Part shown: positions 4,551 through 15,903 of the stretch, piece by piece
Layout of the letters: each line of letters opens with the position of its first letter
How positions within the stretch are numbered: position 1 is the first letter of the stretch
The notes under the pieces: model-generated
Told to the model about the DNA's origin: nothing
The model's database searches: none
The model's input: the letters and a program-made list of their open reading frames with translations, nothing else
IMG/VR virus record: IMGVR_UViG_3300029828_000006
Location: 1-64,000 of that record
DNA: 64,000 bases
Reading direction: 5' to 3' (one strand)
Source: a virus
Taxonomy: Duplodnaviria > Heunggongvirae > Uroviricota > Caudoviricetes
Made by a program: the position numbers and the translations under genes

Positions 4551-5213
4551 TCACTCCACTACAAACCAGTCACATGCCAGTAAGTCGCCTACAGAAGGAA
4601 CCCACGGAACAACTACACCTTGTGCATTTTTTAAGGCGAAATAAGCACCATACGGAACGAGGTCGCCGGGGAAATATCCCTTAATGGCTTCCATTCGTGC
4701 CGGGTACTGTCCTTCAGGAACCAGCCAGCAGAATTGGTTTTCACCGTTCCACCCGCGTCGAGCAACTTTCTTTCCTTCCTTCAGCCACATCAGCGCGTCA
4801 GAAAAGTCGGCTGCTTCAAGGTCGATTTCTTCTTGCTGGGTGGTGATGCCACCAGCAGAAATAGTTACGCTTCCGGAAATATTAATGTTCACGCCGTTGT
4901 CATCCGTAATGATGACCGTGGTCCCATTTTCGGAGGTGTCGTTAACCCGGCTATAGCATTTTTCAAATGCTTTCTCTGGCACATAGACCGGATAGCCATT
5001 TTCAGCAGTGACGAGATATCCTCCTATTTGCGGTCGGAATCTTTCCAAGAACACACCATCAACACGAAGCGTCATTCCTTTTGGCTCAACGACTTCGATA
5101 CTGCCCAAAATGGGCGCATCAGTTTCGCCGACAATAACAATATCTTTGATTTTCGATGCCCGAATGATGCTGTGGCTTTTGTATTTGGGGAACACCTGAA
5201 AAGTGCTAGCCAT
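4551..5213 (-). CDS. two-domain protein with C-terminal DUF2829 (Tad2-like) domain
   Basis: C-terminal FSDALMWLKEGKKVARRGWNG...VVPWVPSVGDLLACDWFVVE matches recalled DUF2829 signature. Confidence 0.5.
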   Translation of the reverse strand: MASTFQVFPKYKSHSIIRASKIKDIVIVGETDAPILGSIEVVEPKGMTLRVDGVFLERFRPQIGGYLVTAENGYPVYVPEKAFEKCYSRVNDTSENGTTVIITDDNGVNINISGSVTISAGGITTQQEEIDLEAADFSDALMWLKEGKKVARRGWNGENQFCWLVPEGQYPARMEAIKGYFPGDLVPYGAYFALKNAQGVVVPWVPSVGDLLACDWFVVE

Positions 5214-6195: not shown

Positions 6196-6536
6196 CGACG
6201 CCCCCTTGCAGGATATCGACCTGCATTAGTATCCGGTGCAATAAAGCCGGTAGTGGGGCGAGTGAAAGCGAGATTAATCTTCTCGACCATAGTGCGATAA
6301 TTTTCCTGATAGTGGGCCAGGAGTTTTTCGGCGGCAATGATGGTTACTTTCCGGACGTAGCTTTCTGCTTCCTCCAGATTTCGCCAGTTTTTTTCGAGGG
6401 TAAACACAGGGACGGCCTCAAGCCCGGTCATGATGCCGAACACAACGACAGCATGACTGTTCTTAACACCAGCGGCGAAGGTTACGGTGTAACCATCCAC
6501 CTTGAAGCGTCTTGATTCCGTGATTTGACTCTGCAA
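6192..6536 (-). CDS. hypothetical protein (114 aa)
   Basis: First gene downstream of cre; operator-like motif about 60 nt upstream. Confidence 0.45.
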   Translation of the reverse strand: MQSQITESRRFKVDGYTVTFAAGVKNSHAVVVFGIMTGLEAVPVFTLEKNWRNLEEAESYVRKVTIIAAEKLLAHYQENYRTMVEKINLAFTRPTTGFIAPDTNAGRYPARGRR

Positions 6537-6592
6537 AGCACCCTCCTAAATAGGCGAGGGTACTTTACAGCAAAGACGTTAATCTAAAAAGA

Positions 6593-6608
6593 TGTGTTAG
6601 AAATTTAA
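6593..6608 (+). promoter_or_regulatory. conserved 16-bp motif TGTGTTAGAAATTTAA (candidate operator)
   Basis: Family consensus T(A/G)TGTTAGAAA(A/T)(C/T)TAA; at cre 3' end upstream of 6192..6536. Confidence 0.4.
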
Positions 6609-6609
6609 T

Positions 6610-7638
6610 TTACGAATCCATCAGGCGGCTATTAGCCCCCACAGACACGCCGCCACGGCGAAGATACCGCATAAGTGTTTCCGGTTTCTTCCAGGTTCCT
6701 TCCTGCATGATCTCCACCATAGACACCTGCTTTTCAGCCATATCAATAGCGGCCCCGACGCGTGCACTATGCCCGGTCCACGTCCGGTATCTTCCTTTGT
6801 TTGGCGTAGCATCTCTTTTATTCAGCAACACCCAGGCGTCGCTGAATATTTTCTCCATTGCAGGTGCAGTAAGGGGCGTTATCGTGATCCTGGCCTTATT
6901 GCTACGGTGTATCGGCGGGAACAGCACTGCGTCAGGATGTTCGCGAAGCCCGGAAACATCCAGCCAGTCATTCAGCACAGCGGTAGTGCGACGGGAAAGC
7001 ACCTTATCAAGCCCGGCGGCGGTCGTTATTGTCTTCGTGTGTGAAATATGTAGCGTGACAGTGTCACCTGTTTGGTCCAGATCTCCTACACGAATACGCG
7101 AGATTTCCGACATACGCATCAGCGTATTGTATGCAACAAAGAGAAAAGCCCGGTTGCGCAGGTCCACCAGCCGTTCTGACCTGGACAACAGGACGTCGAG
7201 CAGTTTCAGATCGTCCCACCGCAGCGGTATAGCCTGGCCTGTTCGTTCGCCTTTTTCCGTTGCCGCTTCACGCCGGATGCGCCGCATAGCCAGAGAAACA
7301 CTTTTATCATCCGAAAGTGGCGGAAGGCCACAATGCGAAAGCAGCATGTTAAGCATGGCGTAGTGCTTATCAATGGTGGTCGAAGCCAGATCAGCATCAT
7401 GCAGCTGAAGAAAATACTCGCGGGCCATCTCTGGTGAGATCGGGAACCAGGCGAGCTGGCGAGCGTGACACCATCTCGCCCAGGAGTGAAACACTAACCG
7501 GAGATCGCGCAAAGTATTCGGCGCATAAGCCCCCTGGTCATTCATGAACCGCATAAAGTTTTCTGCGGCCTCCTGGTACTCTTTGCCAATGTTGCGCAGA
7601 AAACCACCGGAGCTGCCAGAGATAATTAATTCACTCAT
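6610..7638 (-). CDS. cre: Cre-like tyrosine site-specific recombinase
   Basis: 342 aa; aligns with Cre along its length (RRIRRE, AYNTLMRMSEISRIRVGD, TGHSARVGAAIDMA, EIMQEGTW...Y); diverged from P1 Cre. Confidence 0.85.
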   Translation of the reverse strand: MSELIISGSSGGFLRNIGKEYQEAAENFMRFMNDQGAYAPNTLRDLRLVFHSWARWCHARQLAWFPISPEMAREYFLQLHDADLASTTIDKHYAMLNMLLSHCGLPPLSDDKSVSLAMRRIRREAATEKGERTGQAIPLRWDDLKLLDVLLSRSERLVDLRNRAFLFVAYNTLMRMSEISRIRVGDLDQTGDTVTLHISHTKTITTAAGLDKVLSRRTTAVLNDWLDVSGLREHPDAVLFPPIHRSNKARITITPLTAPAMEKIFSDAWVLLNKRDATPNKGRYRTWTGHSARVGAAIDMAEKQVSMVEIMQEGTWKKPETLMRYLRRGGVSVGANSRLMDS

Positions 7639-7789
7639 GAAACTATTTCACCTCTATATACAGATGACGCTACGCGAAAAATATAAAAATGACAGGGTAG
7701 CTATAAGTTAATTTTCAAAATACAACCCTTTGATTCGATGCACGTATTTTCAGTGATGTCAACACTGTTCATCTACACATGATTATAGC

Positions 7790-7823
7790 CTAACTTTAAA
7801 TAATGCCAATTATTTAAAGTTAT
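7790..7823. other. lox-like site (13-bp inverted arms, 8-bp spacer)
   Basis: CTAACTTTAAATA-ATGCCAAT-TATTTAAAGTTAT; arms share ATAACTT with loxP; 150 bp upstream of cre start. Confidence 0.6.
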
Positions 7824-8002
7824 AAAATGCCGATTTTTTTTAATCCATCATAGATTGATGATGACCAGTAACACGTTGCCTTCATGGTCTTTAATTTGCG
7901 AAGTGTGGTTTCTACGGTTGGTTTTCTAAAATTGATGACAAAAAATCACAGTTCGATCCTTTACTCACTCTGTTATTCGACATAAATTTGTCATAGTAAT
8001 TT

Positions 8003-8032: not shown

Positions 8033-9070
8033 ATGAGTAAGAAGTCGATCGAGAAAGAGTACAAACGGTTCCTGCAAACCGCTGAACGGTGGAAAGAGCT
8101 GGTGGTCGCAAACTCTGTTTTCCATGATACCAGTTATGCTGGCGAGGAATTCCGCCATGTTGCATTAACGCATGACCAAAACATATTAGAAGAAGCTGAA
8201 AAATGTCTTGCTGAATGGAAAGCCTTCGTTGACATGTGCCGCGATGCCGACGGCAAAGCGTCGAACATTGTTGAGTCTGTATATTCTCCGATCCCATTCA
8301 TCATTGAGGACACCAATCAAAGCACGCATGTCGTTGTGCAAAGCGCTACAACAACACGTACATTTACACGTGAACAATTGCTAAAAAAATACGACAAAAT
8401 CATAAAGAAAAGCCTTAAAAATAGGGTTTTTTCTCAAATCGTAGGTGATCTTGAAGAAGAACAGCGCTTCTTTGAAGCTGAGCCTGAAGGCGAGATCTAC
8501 CGGGCGCGTAAAGAGGCATATACAGATGTTGTGCTGACAACAAACATCGAAGGCAGCAATGCCCTTTCTCGCTTTAGAGTTGGCGCACATGGTGCATTGG
8601 TTTTCGCAAGACTACCGAAGACAACGATCCCCGTTGTCAATAATGTTGGTGAACGCCGGAGCATTACAATTTATTCTGGCGTCGAATCGGTACCTTGCAG
8701 CCTTCTCGGCGATTTTAACTTATATCGTGTTCGTGACCTGGAAAAACACCAGCCAAGCTATGTTGCGAAGTCGTACATCTTAAGGAACATCGATATTCGC
8801 AATGAAAGCCTTAAGCAGAAATCCGCTAAGATGCTGGAGGATGCCGATCCGGCTATTCGCCATATCATTGAGCGTAAGATACGTACATCACGTGAAGCAA
8901 TGGCAAGGCTGGATAAAATGGATCTGGAATTGTTAGACGTAATGATGGCCTCTGGAGACGACCTGACCGGCATTAAACTGAATGAAGCTCGTAAAAAATA
9001 CGGCAAAGCAATCGAAGAACGTTACGGATACACATTCCCCCAAACGCAGTACGCCGCGAAGCTCTGGTAA
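8033..9070 (+). CDS. hypothetical protein (345 aa) at the c1 position; candidate immunity repressor
   Basis: Convergent with pacB between pacB and lox as c1 is in P1; operator-like motif 14 nt upstream; function positional only. Confidence 0.35.
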   Translation: MSKKSIEKEYKRFLQTAERWKELVVANSVFHDTSYAGEEFRHVALTHDQNILEEAEKCLAEWKAFVDMCRDADGKASNIVESVYSPIPFIIEDTNQSTHVVVQSATTTRTFTREQLLKKYDKIIKKSLKNRVFSQIVGDLEEEQRFFEAEPEGEIYRARKEAYTDVVLTTNIEGSNALSRFRVGAHGALVFARLPKTTIPVVNNVGERRSITIYSGVESVPCSLLGDFNLYRVRDLEKHQPSYVAKSYILRNIDIRNESLKQKSAKMLEDADPAIRHIIERKIRTSREAMARLDKMDLELLDVMMASGDDLTGIKLNEARKKYGKAIEERYGYTFPQTQYAAKLW

Positions 9071-9077
9071 TCACAAC

Positions 9078-9103
9078 CGGCCCCGCATCGCGGGGCTTTA
9101 TAT
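9078..9103. terminator. rho-independent terminator
   Basis: GCCCCGC-ATC-GCGGGGC stem plus T-run between convergent genes. Confidence 0.6.
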
Positions 9104-10606
9104 ATCCAGATCCGGCATTTCGATATCCGCCAGAACCTGATCTCGGAAAGTTGCCATTTCGGCACCAATATCTTCATTAGCAGGCACATAGTCCACCAGC
9201 ATAGTGAAGCAGTAGGTATCCCATCGGTCAGGCGATTTGATGTTTAGCTTTTGCCGCATGTGCTCTTTGCGCATCATCGCCATTTTCCCTTCTTCATTCA
9301 GTAAAAAGGGGATTTTTGACGCTTGCTCTGCCGTTTTAGGGTCACTGTCTATCCGCATACGCCCTGACTTTATGGCATCACGCGCCATAATGTTTGCGTA
9401 GGCACGCTGATTAACAAATCGCTCCCTGTCTTTGTTCGCAAACATGGGTTTTCCCCACCGAATACGTACCGGGTTCGCACCACGACGCACCAACTGCGCA
9501 CACGTATCAGAACCAAAACCATCAGCATCAACCGCGATTGTTATATTCGGGTATTTTTCCGGCGTACATTCGTTATATATGAAGTCAGCAAAGGCCAATG
9601 GGTCCATAGTGCCAGGCATCTCCATTACCTTAAAGTTAACAACGCGCCGCTTATCCCTGTGACCTGATACCTTGCAGATGTTGAGGACCGACTTATCTCG
9701 CCCATTACCAACGTCAGCCGTTGCCACCCATCCCCAGTTTTTCTCCAACAACACCTTGCGGCGAGCAGCGCGATCGCATTCATCACGACCAAGCAAATAG
9801 CCGTTAATTTCTCGTGGGAACTGACCAAGCACCTTGACCATGTACTCAATAGAATCGCGCCCGCCATATTCCAGAAGCTTCTCCTTGATGAATTGTGGTG
9901 TGACGAACGGTGATTCTTCCGAGTTAAGAACAATTGCTGTCCAGATCCCTTTCGGGTTGTCTGGGGTTTTTGCTCGAGAATGGTGCGAATCGTAGAAATA
10001 ACCACTTGGCCTTGTTGGCTGGGATAGCATCAACATCCGGTTATCTTCTTCAGTAAGAGCACCGGTCATTACGCCGATCGCCTTATCAGATATACCAGAT
10101 GCTTCATCCAGAATTAGAAGCAAATGTGCCGCGTGTTCCCCCGCCAGCGCTTCTTCGTTGCCGAGTCGATAACCTTTGCAGAGAACTTCCCAAATCCCCT
10201 TACGGGAGCGCTCATAAAACATGGTGTCAGAGAGGACAAAATAGGTCTGCAACCACCCATGACGCTTAACTGCATTCGCCCAATACTGTTTAACGTATTT
10301 GAATACGCCTGTTTTTACCTGGCCTATCTTGTTAGCAACAATGATGACACGGGCATCGGGGAACAGGATCATAAAAATCAACAGCAACATCGCGGTAAGG
10401 GACGACTTCCCCGTTCCGTGTCCGGACGTGACGGTCGTCCTACTCCCCGTTTCCTGCACTGACTGAATGATCTGCTGCTGCTGGTGGGAGGGGAACATCC
10501 CAAAAATATCGACTACAGCCTGGGTAAAGTTGTAGCGGTATTTGATTACCATATCGCGCCAGCGTGGATCGCTGGTGACGCATTTAATCTTGCGCCCGCC
10601 AGCCAT
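9098..10606 (-). CDS. pacB: PacB, terminase large subunit
   Basis: 502 aa with Walker A-like TSGHGTGKS and LILDEA; start overlaps pacA stop. Confidence 0.8.
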   Translation of the reverse strand: MAGGRKIKCVTSDPRWRDMVIKYRYNFTQAVVDIFGMFPSHQQQQIIQSVQETGSRTTVTSGHGTGKSSLTAMLLLIFMILFPDARVIIVANKIGQVKTGVFKYVKQYWANAVKRHGWLQTYFVLSDTMFYERSRKGIWEVLCKGYRLGNEEALAGEHAAHLLLILDEASGISDKAIGVMTGALTEEDNRMLMLSQPTRPSGYFYDSHHSRAKTPDNPKGIWTAIVLNSEESPFVTPQFIKEKLLEYGGRDSIEYMVKVLGQFPREINGYLLGRDECDRAARRKVLLEKNWGWVATADVGNGRDKSVLNICKVSGHRDKRRVVNFKVMEMPGTMDPLAFADFIYNECTPEKYPNITIAVDADGFGSDTCAQLVRRGANPVRIRWGKPMFANKDRERFVNQRAYANIMARDAIKSGRMRIDSDPKTAEQASKIPFLLNEEGKMAMMRKEHMRQKLNIKSPDRWDTYCFTMLVDYVPANEDIGAEMATFRDQVLADIEMPDLDI

Positions 10607-11970
10607 TAATCATCCTCCGGCGGTTCTATCGCGATATCATCATCTCCGGCGTCATACCCTGCATCAGATGCATCATAATCACCGTAAATTTCAGCCGTTG
10701 CCGAAGGGTCAATATCCAGCTCTTCGTCGTTGGCCTCGAATTCTCCAGCTTTACGCTCGCCATTGCGGTCGTAATCTCCGCACCCCAATTCTTCAACAAT
10801 GGTTGCCACATCCGCCCGGCGCTCTGCCAGCCATTGCGGATGGTTAGCCTGAAGCGTTGCAAACTCCCTTGCCTCTTTGTCCAGCTGTTCATCATCAACA
10901 TCATTGACGTCAGAAACAGGTGGTTCGAGAAGAGTGATAGCTTTCGCCGCGCGCGCCGCGAGGATAGCCGGGACGCTGACACCCTGGCGCTCGATGTATT
11001 CAGCAACACCGATATCATCCAGTTCCTCGCGCTCACGCATACGTATAGCGGCGGCGATAACTCTGGCTGCGCGTGCGTCAGCGCCAATGCGATATTCAAT
11101 CTCTTTGCCACGCTGTTCGGCCTGTAGGCGTGCTAATTCGAGTTTTTCTCTGGCCTCAGCCTCTTTGAATGCTTGCTGGCGAGCGCTCTGACGAAGCTTT
11201 TCATCCCCCTGTCGCAGCTTTTGTTCGGACTGATATATAGCTGCCAACCTACTGATAAAATCATTCATGTAGTAGGCCGCGTCACTGATTAGACCGAGAA
11301 GGCGCTGCCCAGGGTGCATTCCTTCTGGCTCTTTATCGCCCAAGGCGTCTATTTCCGCCTGTAGACGTTCGGCCTCCTGATCAACAATGCTTTGATACTG
11401 AAGTGCGCGCTCTTGCGCCATTTGAATTGCTAACCGCAGGTGTTCTTCTGCGCCGTTCTTCATCATATCGCGAGCCACATTCGTAGTTGGCAATGTGGCA
11501 CGCTGCACAGCACCGTCAGGGATCATTGCAGAAGATCCCTCAATTTTTGGGGCGTTTTTATCTTCTTCGGGGATCATTTTCGCCATTTTTTCGCGCAATG
11601 ATCTCCTGACGGATTCTTTTATCTCATTGTTATTATTTGAATTATTTTCATGATCCGAAGTTTTCTTTCTCGGCATACTTCGGAAAGAACCTGCGCCCTG
11701 CGAATTGTCAATTTCTGTAAATTTTGTTTTTTCTGCACCCTCTTCCAGCTTTTTTGTTGCTCTTCCCGCCCGTTTTTTTTCAGGTGATTTGGTGCTTTTT
11801 TTTGTTGTCTTTACCTGCGACCGCACCTCATTTTTTTTCATATTGAGATGCTTTCTGGCTGTATTGAAGCTAAGGCCATGCTCCTCACAGTATTCCTTTA
11901 CAGTGATCCCTTTTTCTTCACGCAACGCTATAAAGCGGGCGCGGTGCTCCTCCCAATTAACCAGACTCAT
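10606..11970 (-). CDS. pacA: PacA, terminase small subunit / pac recognition
   Basis: 454 aa, N-terminal HTH-like, acidic C-terminus; contains GATC cluster. Confidence 0.75.
   Translation of the reverse strand: MSLVNWEEHRARFIALREEKGITVKEYCEEHGLSFNTARKHLNMKKNEVRSQVKTTKKSTKSPEKKRAGRATKKLEEGAEKTKFTEIDNSQGAGSFRSMPRKKTSDHENNSNNNNEIKESVRRSLREKMAKMIPEEDKNAPKIEGSSAMIPDGAVQRATLPTTNVARDMMKNGAEEHLRLAIQMAQERALQYQSIVDQEAERLQAEIDALGDKEPEGMHPGQRLLGLISDAAYYMNDFISRLAAIYQSEQKLRQGDEKLRQSARQQAFKEAEAREKLELARLQAEQRGKEIEYRIGADARAARVIAAAIRMREREELDDIGVAEYIERQGVSVPAILAARAAKAITLLEPPVSDVNDVDDEQLDKEAREFATLQANHPQWLAERRADVATIVEELGCGDYDRNGERKAGEFEANDEELDIDPSATAEIYGDYDASDAGYDAGDDDIAIEPPEDD
11510..11656. other. candidate pac site (cluster of TGATCN/GATC elements)
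   Basis: Five GATC within 147 bp inside pacA 5' part, in two groups, resembling P1 pac hexamer organisation. Confidence 0.35.
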
Positions 11971-13889: not shown

Positions 13890-13965
13890 TGGTGGCCCCT
13901 ACCGGACTTGAACCGGTGACCGTGCGATTATGAGTCGCCAGCTCTAACCACTGAGCTAAGGGGCC
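13890..13965 (-). tRNA. tRNA-Ile2 (anticodon CAU, lysidine type)
   Basis: 76 nt with CCA; near-identical to recalled E. coli ileX; anticodon loop CTCATAA. Confidence 0.9.
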
Positions 13966-13974
13966 AATTAGTTT

Positions 13975-14088
13975 TTATTTTCGACGCCTGAGATTCTTCG
14001 CTACTTGTTCTACTCCGTATACGATCACAAGCAGAAATAGCAAAGACCATCCAGGGTTCTTATCAATATACGTCCAAAAATCCATCAT
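13975..14088 (-). CDS. small membrane peptide (37 aa), TciC-position
   Basis: ATGATGG start overlaps upstream stop; one hydrophobic helix; below track cut-off. Confidence 0.3.
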   Translation of the reverse strand: MMDFWTYIDKNPGWSLLFLLVIVYGVEQVAKNLRRRK

Positions 14089-14249
14089 GAGTTCCTGAAC
14101 GCAGCTTTAATAATCGGCAATAGCAATACCACAGCTACTGAAACCAGTGCCCCATCAGCCAACACCGACATCACTTTGCTGGTGAAATCCACCAGCACGG
14201 ACAAAACGAGAAAACCAATGGCGCACGCAATACGCGCCTTGCCAATCAT
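14085..14249 (-). CDS. small membrane protein (54 aa), TciB-position
   Basis: Start overlaps tciA stop; two hydrophobic segments. Confidence 0.3.
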   Translation of the reverse strand: MIGKARIACAIGFLVLSVLVDFTSKVMSVLADGALVSVAVVLLLPIIKAAFRNS

Positions 14250-14683
14250 TACAGATAATCTTCCACACGAAGGCCCAAACGACGGCCTACTTCTTCCAGT
14301 ACTTTGTGTTCTGCTGGCTCGATTTCACCGTCCGCTTCTGCAATCGTCAGCATGTTAACGAATACTTCTTCCGCTTCTTTTGGATCATTTTTGATATCTT
14401 CAATTTCGCGAAGGATATTCATGCGACCAACACGGAAACCAGCTTCCAGTTGCTCAGTAAAACGGGTGATTGTTGCGGTAATTTCGTTGCCAAAATGACT
14501 TAAGCGAGGATTAGAGCGGACAAGCTGATCAAGTTTCGCTGTTTCTTCCTTTTCGATTTCACCATCTGCGGCAGACACCAACAAACAGCCACCGATAATG
14601 GCCTCCATCAGATCGCGATTCTCAACCCTTTTCAGCTCTACTTTTGCTGAAGCGACTTTCTTACCGAAAAATTTACCGAACAT
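14249..14683 (-). CDS. tciA: TerB-like protein (TciA-like)
   Basis: 144 aa with paired acidic helical repeats typical of the TerB fold. Confidence 0.6.
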   Translation of the reverse strand: MFGKFFGKKVASAKVELKRVENRDLMEAIIGGCLLVSAADGEIEKEETAKLDQLVRSNPRLSHFGNEITATITRFTEQLEAGFRVGRMNILREIEDIKNDPKEAEEVFVNMLTIAEADGEIEPAEHKVLEEVGRRLGLRVEDYL

Positions 14684-14950
14684 TGGTTATCCCTCAATAA
14701 ACATGACGTATTTATTAGGTTGCGGTGCCTGGTGCCTCCAGGTGACGTTAACCAGTTAACAATTAACGCCGGGATGTTTGACTTAACCACTAAGGAGGAT
14801 TGTTTTAACTGTTCCGCGTGCGCATAGCCGCATTCACCGCAATGGTAAGAGCACTTGGCTGGCTGGGCGGCGATGACGCCTGTACGCATTTGGTGATCCG
14901 GTTCTGCTTCCGGCATTCGCTTAATTAGCCAAATACTCTTAACGTTGCAC

Positions 14951-15037
14951 TGGCGGAGAGTAATGGAATCGAACCATCATCGCTTGCGCAATGGGACGGT
15001 TTTCAAGACCGTTTGAGCACCATGCTCCCTACTCTCC
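14951..15037 (-). tRNA. tRNA-Ser (anticodon UGA)
   Basis: 87 nt type II tRNA; acceptor GGAGAGT/ACTCTCC, anticodon loop CTTGAAA, long variable arm, CCA. Confidence 0.8.
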
Positions 15038-15139
15038 AGTGATTGTGATGGTCGGTGCTGAACTCCGACACAGGGTTGTAGCAAGCCCCGCAAAGCGCGC
15101 ACTACTGTAGTTGCGGCACATCAGCCTGTGCATTCACCA

Positions 15140-15229
15140 CAATGTTGAGAACACTGGTTGTCACGCTGCAACGCAACATTTATTCGTAGATTGGGATATG
15201 ACCCCGTTACGCCAGTGTTCTCAACGTTG
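15140..15229. repeat. long-stem hairpin (18-bp stem, 54-nt loop)
   Basis: CAATGTTGAGAACACTGG ... CCAGTGTTCTCAACGTTG, one wobble; preceded by conserved leader. Confidence 0.5.
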
Positions 15230-15370
15230 TAGTGCCGGTTACGGTTCCGGCCAGGCCTCTTCCTCAACGGGGTGTTCTCCATACGGACTACCGTTTATTG
15301 GTCGTTCCTGCGGTTTATGTTGTGAAGCCAGATGCTTATCTTCTGGTTGCTTCAAAGAGCTGCACTTCAT

Positions 15371-15438
15371 CACAACGGTAAGAGCACTCGATGCATTTAA
15401 GCCAAGCCCCATAAGGGAGAATGCCCTTACCTGTTGTG
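15371..15438. repeat. imperfect long-stem hairpin, same family
   Basis: CACAACGGTAAG ... CTTACCTGTTGTG; shares leader and GCTTGGC with next unit. Confidence 0.45.
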
Positions 15439-15566
15439 TTGTGATGACCGGTGCTGATCTCCGGCTTGCGGTTATTTCAGACTCTCACGGGCGTTTATTT
15501 GCCCCGCCGAACAGCTCTTTTCCGCAATAGCTGCAATGTCTTTCGCGCATCAGCCTGCGCATTCAT

Positions 15567-15653
15567 CACAACGGTAAGGGTACTTCGTAGGGATTCGAAC
15601 CCTCTGCCAAGCACGGCGATCTCCGACGTCGCAAAATACCCTTACCTGTTGTG
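15567..15653 (-). ncRNA. tRNA-like element lacking a D-arm
   Basis: Minus strand has canonical T-arm AGGG-TTCGAAT-CCCT and a 4-bp/9-nt hairpin inside a 16-bp stem; abuts tRNA-Thr. Confidence 0.4.
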
Positions 15654-15654
15654 T

Positions 15655-15730
15655 TGGTGCCGGTTAACGGACTCGAACCGCTGACATCCTGCTTACAAGG
15701 CAGGCGCTCTACCAACTGAGCTAAACCGGC
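15655..15730 (-). tRNA. tRNA-Thr (anticodon UGU)
   Basis: 76 nt; acceptor GCCGGTT/AACCGGC, anticodon loop CTTGTAA, CCA. Confidence 0.9.
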
Positions 15731-15734
15731 AATT

Positions 15735-15821
15735 TGGTGGGGAGTGATGGAGTCGAACCACCCGAGTCGCAATGACAGTAGATTTACAGTCTACCCCGCT
15801 ACCCCTACGGACTAACTCCCC
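15735..15821 (-). tRNA. tRNA-Tyr (anticodon GUA)
   Basis: 87 nt type II; anticodon arm AGACTGTAAATCT as in E. coli tRNA-Tyr; CCA. Confidence 0.85.
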
Positions 15822-15826
15822 TGAAT

Positions 15827-15903
15827 TGGCGATGGTGGGTGGATTCGAACCACCGACCGACAGCTTAGAAGGCTGCTGCTCTATCCTACTGAGCTACACC
15901 ACC
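15827..15903 (-). tRNA. tRNA-Arg (anticodon UCU)
   Basis: 77 nt; anticodon loop CTTCTAA; CCA. Confidence 0.85.

What the first reader, a model, noticed from the sequence alone, without database searches (positions are those of the whole stretch)
6610..7823. Diverged Cre-like recombinase with its own lox-like site
The recombinase aligns with Cre but is clearly diverged. The adjacent 34-bp site keeps the 13-8-13 architecture and ATAACTT arm start, but differs in the inner arm bases and has spacer ATGCCAAT rather than the loxP spacer. This could be a recombinase/site pair orthogonal to Cre/loxP.
Basis: partly seen in the sequence, partly recalled or inferred. Interest (0 to 1): 0.65.

Follow-up and report, generated by a model that had tools for sequence, protein, structure and literature searches.

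The report
Known Dre recombinase and rox site

Summary
The 342-aa ORF (6610-7638, minus strand) matches Dre of phage D6 at 341 of 342 residues (T253I). The 32-bp palindrome at 7791-7822 is base-for-base the annotated rox site, including its two native flanking bases. Gene order matches the D6 immC region (dut-orf3-orf2-dre-rox-c1-pacB-pacA-lpa). The first 25 kb of the window is 100% identical to E. coli plasmid pF16EC0589-1, a D6-like plasmid prophage.

Dre is 41% identical to Cre. It keeps the catalytic R175/K202/H290/R293/W316/Y325 and the rox-specificity residues R44/P259/K263. Published assays show efficient Dre/rox recombination with no Cre/loxP cross-reaction.

The I253 allele occurs in 11 sequenced plasmids. 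rox stays conserved in relatives whose flanking sequence has diverged strongly.

One unverified side observation: the only near-consensus sigma-70 promoter in the 64-kb window has its -35 hexamer inside the rox spacer and points at dre, which suggests autoregulation.

Novelty: already known. Interest: low.

The parts
6610..7638 (-). dre: Dre tyrosine recombinase, 342 aa (natural T253I allele; stop codon included)
   Evidence: ORF. 341/342 identical to D6 Dre AAV84949.1. PF00589 scores 60.8 bits against a cutoff of 27.1. Cre structures match at E = 1.7e-68. Catalytic R175, K202, H290, R293, W316 and Y325 are present, as are the specificity residues R44, P259 and K263.
6880..6882 (-). Codon ATA = Ile253, the only amino-acid difference from D6 Dre (Thr253)
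   Evidence: A 40-aa peptide carrying I253 matches 100% in 11 PLSDB plasmids, against 91 plasmids with one mismatch.
7791..7822 (.). rox, the 32-bp Dre target: TAACTTTAAATAAT GCCA ATTATTTAAAGTTA
   Evidence: 32/32 identical to the misc_recomb 'rox' feature of AY753669. With its flanking bases it is the reverse complement of the sequence printed in PMC3082901. It is the only such palindrome in the window.
7791..7804 (+). rox left 14-bp arm (one Dre-binding half-site)
   Evidence: Perfect complement of 7809-7822. The role is assigned by homology to the Cre-loxP half-site (PMC4777119).
7805..7808 (+). rox asymmetric 4-bp core GCCA, which gives the site its direction. The functional crossover region is thought to be the 8 bp ATGCCAAT at 7803-7810.
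   Evidence: PMC4777119 supports a crossover region similar in length to that of loxP, with positions 2 and 7 critical.
7809..7822 (-). rox right 14-bp arm (second half-site)
7782..7809 (-). Putative sigma-70 promoter reading toward dre: -35 TTGGCA (7809..7804, inside the rox core), 16-nt spacer, -10 TATAAT (7787..7782)
   Evidence: 11/12 match to consensus. It is the only match of at least 11/12 in the 64-kb window on either strand. The -10 hexamer is invariant in six diverged relatives. Function is inferred, not shown.
8033..9070 (+). c1-type prophage repressor gene, the neighbour of rox on the other side (context)
   Evidence: ORF. Same position as c1 in AY753669 and D6_1 in MF356679. Annotated 'phage repressor protein' in CP088384.1.
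9098..11970 (-). pacB and pacA terminase genes (context; the pac-c1-rox-dre layout parallels P1 pac-c1-lox-cre)
   Evidence: ORFs; annotation.

Best explanation
The region is the dre-rox site-specific recombination module of a D6-like (P1-related) plasmid prophage of E. coli.

How it works: Dre is a Cre-type tyrosine recombinase. Two Dre monomers bind the two 14-bp arms of each rox site and two occupied sites synapse as a tetramer. Tyr325, assisted by R175, K202, H290, R293 and W316, cleaves and exchanges one pair of strands and then the other through a Holliday intermediate, within the roughly 6-8 bp central region around GCCA. No accessory proteins or sites are needed.

Likely role in the phage-plasmid: by analogy with P1 Cre/lox, it circularises incoming terminally redundant DNA and resolves plasmid dimers so that the low-copy prophage segregates stably.

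What is shown here: the identity of the protein, the site and the gene context.
What is shown in the literature for D6 Dre: recombination at rox, orthogonality to Cre/loxP, and independence from cofactors.
What is inferred: the details of the chemistry, the in-phage role, and full activity of the I253 allele.
For: - The protein is 341/342 identical to D6 Dre.
- The site and its flanks are identical to the annotated rox and to the published sequence.
- Gene order dut-orf3-orf2-dre-rox-c1-pacB-pacA-lpa matches D6.
- The first 25 kb of the window is 100% identical to the circular 91.9-kb plasmid CP088384.1.
- The module lies on plasmids at 124 of 127 places in complete E. coli genomes.
- The catalytic residues are present and invariant from Cre to Dre.
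- Rox-specificity residues R44, P259 and K263 are present. They correspond to the Cre K43R/R259P/G263K swaps that confer rox activity on Cre (PMC4957104).
- No Cre/Dre cross-reactivity has been found (PMC3082901).
- rox is kept at 32/32 or 31/32 in relatives whose flanks are only 37-79% identical, which indicates selection on the site.
- The I253 allele recurs in 11 plasmids from cattle, human and chicken isolates.
Against: - Nothing argues against the identification.
- The T253I allele has not been assayed. Residue 253 lies six residues before P259, which is a specificity position.
- The biological role in D6-like prophages (cyclisation, dimer resolution) is extrapolated from P1.
- The P1-type cluster of TGATCR hexamers that marks pac is absent from pacA here, so the position of pac relative to rox is not verified.
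- The primary paper (Sauer & McDermott 2004) could not be read. Its content is known only through citing papers.
Confidence: 0.96

Rival explanations
1. A new recombinase/site pair, distinct from every described one and orthogonal to Cre/loxP. This is the novelty reading of the first-stage finding.
For: The protein is only 41% identical to Cre and the site shares 22 of 34 positions with loxP.
Against: It is Dre/rox itself: 341/342 aa and 32/32 bp identical to the GenBank entry annotated dre/rox and to the published rox sequence. Dre/rox had already been reported in E. coli genomes, one with a point mutation (PMC4957104).
Confidence: 0.01
2. The natural T253I allele has altered activity or target preference compared with laboratory Dre.
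For: It is the single difference from D6 Dre. All four other Dre-like sequences compared have Thr at this position. Residue 253 lies just upstream of the segment holding P259 and K263, which influence specificity.
Against: The cognate site next to it is unchanged. The allele persists in 11 plasmids from different hosts, which is consistent with it being functional on rox. Position 253 is not among the specificity residues identified, and this position is variable between Cre, the Leclercia homologue and Dre.
Confidence: 0.07
3. The recombinase is an integrase that inserts the element into the chromosome at an attB-like site, rather than a cyclisation and resolution enzyme.
For: It has a Pfam 'phage integrase' catalytic domain. 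Three of 127 matching places in E. coli genomes are on chromosome records (not examined).
Against: 124 of 127 places are on plasmids of about 90 kb. The site is a simple symmetric 32-bp palindrome with no arm-type sites, and no second site or half-site occurs in the window. Dre works on two identical rox sites without cofactors.
Confidence: 0.02
4. The module is an inactive relic in this plasmid.
For: One relative (pSa1423-90k) has an altered rox and no full-length dre annotated, so decay does occur.
Against: Here the ORF is intact, all catalytic residues are present, rox is perfect and the putative promoter is intact.
Confidence: 0.02

Closest known systems
Dre/rox of Escherichia (Salmonella) phage D6 (GenBank AY753669, MF356679; Sauer & McDermott 2004)
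   Same: The protein is 341/342 identical. The rox 32-mer and its flanking bases are identical. The neighbouring genes and their orientation are the same.
   Different: One residue differs (T253I). The region is about 96.5% identical at nucleotide level overall. The host replicon is a D6-like E. coli plasmid prophage rather than the D6 type phage, with some accessory differences such as the tRNA set.
Cre/loxP of phage P1
   Same: Same fold and catalytic residues, 41% identity along the full length. The target has the same family design, with ATAACTT...ATAAT arms. The position in the genome is the same, next to c1 and pacAB. Biological roles are presumed to be the same.
   Different: The arm bases at three inner positions and the spacer differ (22/34 identical). 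rox symmetry is 14-4-14 against 13-8-13 for loxP. There is no cross-recombination. lox lies about 435 bp from cre, with cra and three mapped promoters between them. rox lies 152 bp from dre and overlaps a putative promoter.
Panto/pox (Pantoea sp. aB)
   Same: It is a Cre-type recombinase 52% identical to Dre. Its site differs from rox by one arm base, and Panto and Dre each recombine both rox and pox (PMC4957104).
   Different: It is a much more distant protein with a different spacer and relaxed specificity. The window protein is Dre itself, not Panto.

Membership tests
Dre/rox system of phage D6 | Recombinase essentially identical to Dre (AAV84949.1) | tested here: met
   341/342 identical with no gaps; tblastn 99.7% to all three D6 records.
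Dre/rox system of phage D6 | 32-bp rox site TAACTTTAAATAATGCCAATTATTTAAAGTTA adjacent to the gene | tested here: met
   Exact match at 7791-7822, 152 bp upstream of dre. It matches the published sequence with its native flanks.
Dre/rox system of phage D6 | Residues that confer rox rather than loxP preference (Dre equivalents of Cre K43R, R259P, G263K) | tested here: met
   R44, P259 and K263 are present. Their role is taken from PMC4957104.
Dre/rox system of phage D6 | Recombines rox but not loxP, without cofactors | not testable with these tools
   Shown for D6 Dre in PMC3082901 and PMC4957104. Not assayed for the I253 allele.
Dre/rox system of phage D6 | D6-type immC context: dut-orf3-orf2-dre-rox-c1-pacB-pacA-lpa | tested here: met
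   ORFs compared with the annotations.
Cre-type tyrosine recombinases | Catalytic R-K-H-R-W-Y set | tested here: met
   R175, K202, H290, R293, W316 and Y325 are present and invariant in the alignment with Cre. The same residue numbers are listed for Dre in PMC4777119.
Cre-type tyrosine recombinases | Phage_integrase catalytic domain plus an N-terminal core-binding domain that aligns with Cre | tested here: met
   PF00589 scores 60.8 bits against a cutoff of 27.1. PF02899 scores 21.6, just under its cutoff of 22.3. Residues 22-341 align to Cre 21-340 at E = 1.7e-68.
Cre-type tyrosine recombinases | Simple target of two inverted arms around a short asymmetric core, with no accessory arm sites | tested here: met
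   14-4-14 palindrome. No further full sites or half-sites occur in 64 kb.
Cre/loxP proper (P1, P7, phiW39) | Protein near-identical to Cre, with a loxP site | tested here: not met
   41% identity to P1 Cre. The site shares 22 of 34 positions with loxP.
D6-like (P1-related) plasmid prophages | Circular plasmid of about 90 kb carrying P1/D6-type phage modules | tested here: met
   Window 1-25000 is 100% identical to the circular 91,937-bp plasmid CP088384.1. The rest of the window matches D6-like plasmids with tail, capsid and RepB genes at about 98%. D6-like prophages are described in PMC6799933.

The most novel reading that the evidence does not exclude
In its native setting, dre is transcribed from a promoter whose -35 hexamer (TTGGCA) is the rox crossover core itself. 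Dre bound to rox would then shut off its own synthesis, and recombination and expression would be coupled at one 32-bp element. This arrangement differs from P1 cre/lox and, as far as I could find, is not discussed in the accessible literature. I could not check the 2004 primary paper.
Probability: 0.35. Interest if true: 0.3.

Novelty: already known. Interest (0 to 1): 0.07.

Why it matters
As a discovery it does not matter. Dre/rox is an established recombinase system used alongside Cre/loxP in mice, zebrafish, cell lines and bacteria (papers listed).

Two minor points of practical interest:
- A natural T253I allele and several 89-94% identical Dre-like proteins keep an unchanged rox. This is a small natural mutational data set on what Dre tolerates.
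- The possible rox-embedded promoter would be relevant to how the native phage-plasmid controls Dre levels.

Tried and rejected
- I tried to read the primary paper (Sauer & McDermott 2004) by DOI and by PMC id. It is not held, and a title-phrase search found nothing. I relied on citing papers instead.
- I looked for a P1-type pac site (a cluster of TGATCR hexamers in pacA) to support the cyclisation role. There is only one hexamer in pacA and no enrichment in the window, so that argument was dropped.
- I searched for further rox copies or half-sites in the window and found none. This is expected for a one-site-per-genome system.
- I considered that the window might simply be plasmid CP088384.1. 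That holds for bases 1-25000 but not for 39001-64000, where the best match is another plasmid at 97.9%.
- I planned a local whole-window BLAST against the D6 genome, but loci L002-L005 did not appear in the script sandbox, so this was not done.
- A literature search for a rox-associated promoter or Dre autoregulation returned nothing relevant.
- No structure prediction or large homology searches were run, because the identity to Dre made them unnecessary.

Full report
**1. What is in the sequence**

A 342-codon ORF runs from 7638 down to 6610 on the minus strand. Upstream of its start codon by 152 bp, at 7791-7822, lies TAACTTTAAATAAT-GCCA-ATTATTTAAAGTTA, a perfect 14-bp inverted repeat around a 4-bp asymmetric core.

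In that reading the outermost arm bases (C and T) do not pair. The site shares 22 of 34 positions with loxP.

It is the only perfect inverted repeat with arms of at least 11 bp and a spacer of 0-10 bp in the whole 64-kb window. None with arms of at least 14 bp arose in 20 locally shuffled copies. The 32-mer occurs once at up to 3 mismatches, against zero expected, and there are no stray half-sites.

**2. What it is**

A megablast of 6500-7900 against phage records hit only phage D6, at about 96.5% identity, over features annotated 'dre: tyrosine recombinase' and 'region of crossover (rox) site for Dre recombinase'.

- The window protein is 341/342 identical to D6 Dre (AAV84949.1). The single change is Thr253 to Ile, codon ATA at 6880-6882.
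- The dre-c1 intergenic region is 99% identical to D6, and the rox 32-mer with its flanking bases is identical.
- PMC3082901 prints rox with its two native boundary bases as (A)TAACTTTAAATAAT TGGC ATTATTTAAAGTTA(G). That is the exact reverse complement of window 7790-7823.
- PMC4777119 describes rox as 14-bp inverted repeats around a 4-bp asymmetric spacer. It lists Dre's catalytic residues as R175, H290, R293, W316 and Y325. All of these, plus K202, are present here and are invariant in an alignment running from Cre to the Dre-like proteins.
- The gene order dut-orf3-orf2-dre-rox-c1-pacB-pacA-lpa matches the D6 immC region.

**3. Where it sits**

Window 1-25000 is 100% identical to pF16EC0589-1 (CP088384.1), a circular 91,937-bp non-mobilizable plasmid from an E. 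coli blood isolate. Window 39001-64000 instead matches other D6-like plasmids best, at about 98%, and covers tail, capsid and RepB genes. [quoted passage not shown]

The dre-rox stretch is found in 144 PLSDB plasmids and in 124 of 5,426 complete E. coli genomes. At 124 of 127 places it lies on plasmids. PMC4957104 had already noted Dre/rox in two E. coli genomes, one carrying a point mutation.

**4. How it works**

*Shown here by sequence*
- It is a Cre-type tyrosine recombinase. PF00589 scores 60.8 bits, residues 22-341 align to Cre 21-340 at E = 1.7e-68, and identity to P1 Cre is 41%.
- It has the full catalytic set.
- It has R44, P259 and K263. These are the residues which, when introduced into Cre as K43R/R259P/G263K, give Cre activity on rox (PMC4957104).

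*Shown in the literature for D6 Dre*
- Recombination between two rox sites is efficient in E. coli and in mammalian cells.
- No accessory factors are needed.
- There is no cross-reaction with loxP, VloxP or SloxM1.
- There is cross-reaction only with the near-identical pox site.
- Spacer positions 2 and 7 of ATGCCAAT govern site compatibility, which supports a crossover region similar in length to that of loxP.

*Inferred*
- Each 14-bp arm binds one monomer. Two sites synapse in a tetramer, and Tyr325 carries out sequential strand exchanges through a Holliday junction, as established for Cre.
- In the phage-plasmid the module circularises terminally redundant infecting DNA and resolves plasmid dimers, as Cre/lox does for P1. 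I could not support this role from the position of pac, because the P1-type cluster of TGATCR hexamers is absent from pacA.

**5. Natural variation**

Protein-level searching of plasmids gave 91 records at 99% identity or more, 9 at 95-99%, 10 at 90-95% and 82 at 80-90%. Below that come a 51% homologue in Leclercia and Cre at about 41%.

Representatives with 89-94% identical proteins were sampled from E. coli MINF_7C, Enterobacter hormaechei pHS08-175-1 and E. fergusonii RHB44-C21. They keep rox at 32/32, 32/32 and 31/32, while the 100 bp to its left falls to 66-79% identity and the 60 bp to its right to 37-58%. The site is thus an island of conservation, consistent with it being the functional target across this clade.

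The I253 allele is a minority form. A 40-aa peptide carrying it matches exactly in 11 plasmids, from cattle, human and chicken isolates, against 91 plasmids with one mismatch. All other Dre-like sequences examined have Thr at this position. Residue 253 lies six residues before P259, so an effect on activity cannot be excluded. The unchanged cognate site and the recurrence of the allele argue that it is neutral.

**6. A side observation**

The consensus scan found TTGGCA-16 nt-TATAAT on the dre strand, an 11/12 match. The -35 hexamer (7809-7804) is the rox core TGGC plus one base on each side, and the -10 lies at 7787-7782. This is the only match of at least 11/12 in the entire window on either strand. 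The -10 hexamer is invariant in all six aligned relatives, although the adjacent bases vary.

This suggests that dre is transcribed from a promoter overlapping rox and that Dre occupancy could repress it. In P1, by contrast, lox is about 435 bp from cre, with cra and three mapped promoters between them.

This is inference only.

**7. Verdict**

The finding is real and correctly interpreted, but it rediscovers Dre/rox, which was described in 2004 and is in routine use. Novelty: already known. Interest is low. The residual interest lies in the untested I253 allele and in the possible promoter embedded in rox.

Noticed in passing
window 7782-7809 (minus strand): A near-consensus sigma-70 promoter (TTGGCA-16-TATAAT, 11/12) points at dre, with its -35 hexamer inside the rox core. 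It is the only match of at least 11/12 in the 64-kb window, and its -10 is invariant in six diverged relatives. It suggests Dre autoregulation through rox occupancy.
   Followed up: partly
window 7760-7770: A conserved block TGTCAA(C/T)ACTG (a perfect TTGACA on the minus strand) lies between rox and dre. It is invariant apart from one base in six relatives while neighbouring bases diverge, and it has no obvious -10 partner. It could be an operator or a second promoter element.
   Followed up: no
L007 1582-1613; L008 1578-1609; L009 about 1578-1609: Dre-like recombinases only 89-94% identical to Dre keep rox exactly or with one change, while the flanks are 37-79% identical. They come from E. 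coli MINF_7C, an E. hormaechei IncC/IncFIB plasmid and E. fergusonii. The E. fergusonii site carries a natural right-arm variant, ATTATCTAAAGTTA.
   Followed up: partly
L006 (Salmonella pSa1423-90k), rox region: Here rox carries an inserted base plus a substitution (…ATTATTTGGAAGTTA), and no full-length dre CDS is annotated, only a 384-bp 'hypothetical protein'. The module looks like it is decaying.
   Followed up: no
L010 451-482 (Leclercia adecarboxylata pE1_003): A recombinase 50% identical to Dre and about 41% identical to Cre has a different lox-family palindrome about 117 bp upstream of its start: TTACTATAGATAAT AGGC ATTATCTATACCTA. It is 14-4-14 with 11 of 14 arm positions symmetric. 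It is a candidate distinct recombinase/site pair; I did not check whether it has been described.
   Followed up: no
window 13890-15903 (minus strand); L004 6084-7850: The tRNA array differs from D6. The window has Met(cat), Ser(tga), Thr(tgt), Tyr(gta) and Arg(tct). In D6, ARAGORN finds Met, Ser, Thr and Asn, all on the minus strand. The D6 GenBank record lists only Ser, Thr and Asn, and on the plus strand.
   Followed up: partly
window 10606-11970 (pacA): The cluster of TGATCA/G hexamers that characterises the P1 pac site is absent. There is a single hit at 11378, and the motif is not enriched in the window. The D6-type pac site must differ from that of P1.
   Followed up: no
window 1-25000 versus 39001-64000: The first 25 kb is 100% identical to plasmid CP088384.1. 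The last 25 kb matches other D6-like plasmids best (97.9% to NZ_CP027382.1), and CP088384.1 is not among the top five. This points to mosaicism among D6-like plasmid prophages, or to a source plasmid that is not in PLSDB.
   Followed up: no
E. coli complete genomes: Three of the 127 places matching dre-rox lie on chromosome records rather than plasmids. They could be integrated D6-like elements or assembly artefacts.
   Followed up: no
window 4551-5213 (minus strand): The DUF2829-type ORF next to dut is 220 aa here, and also in CP088384.1. The D6 counterpart (orf114) is 441 bp and is noted as matching only the C-terminal half of a phage SJ46 protein, so the window carries the longer form.
   Followed up: no
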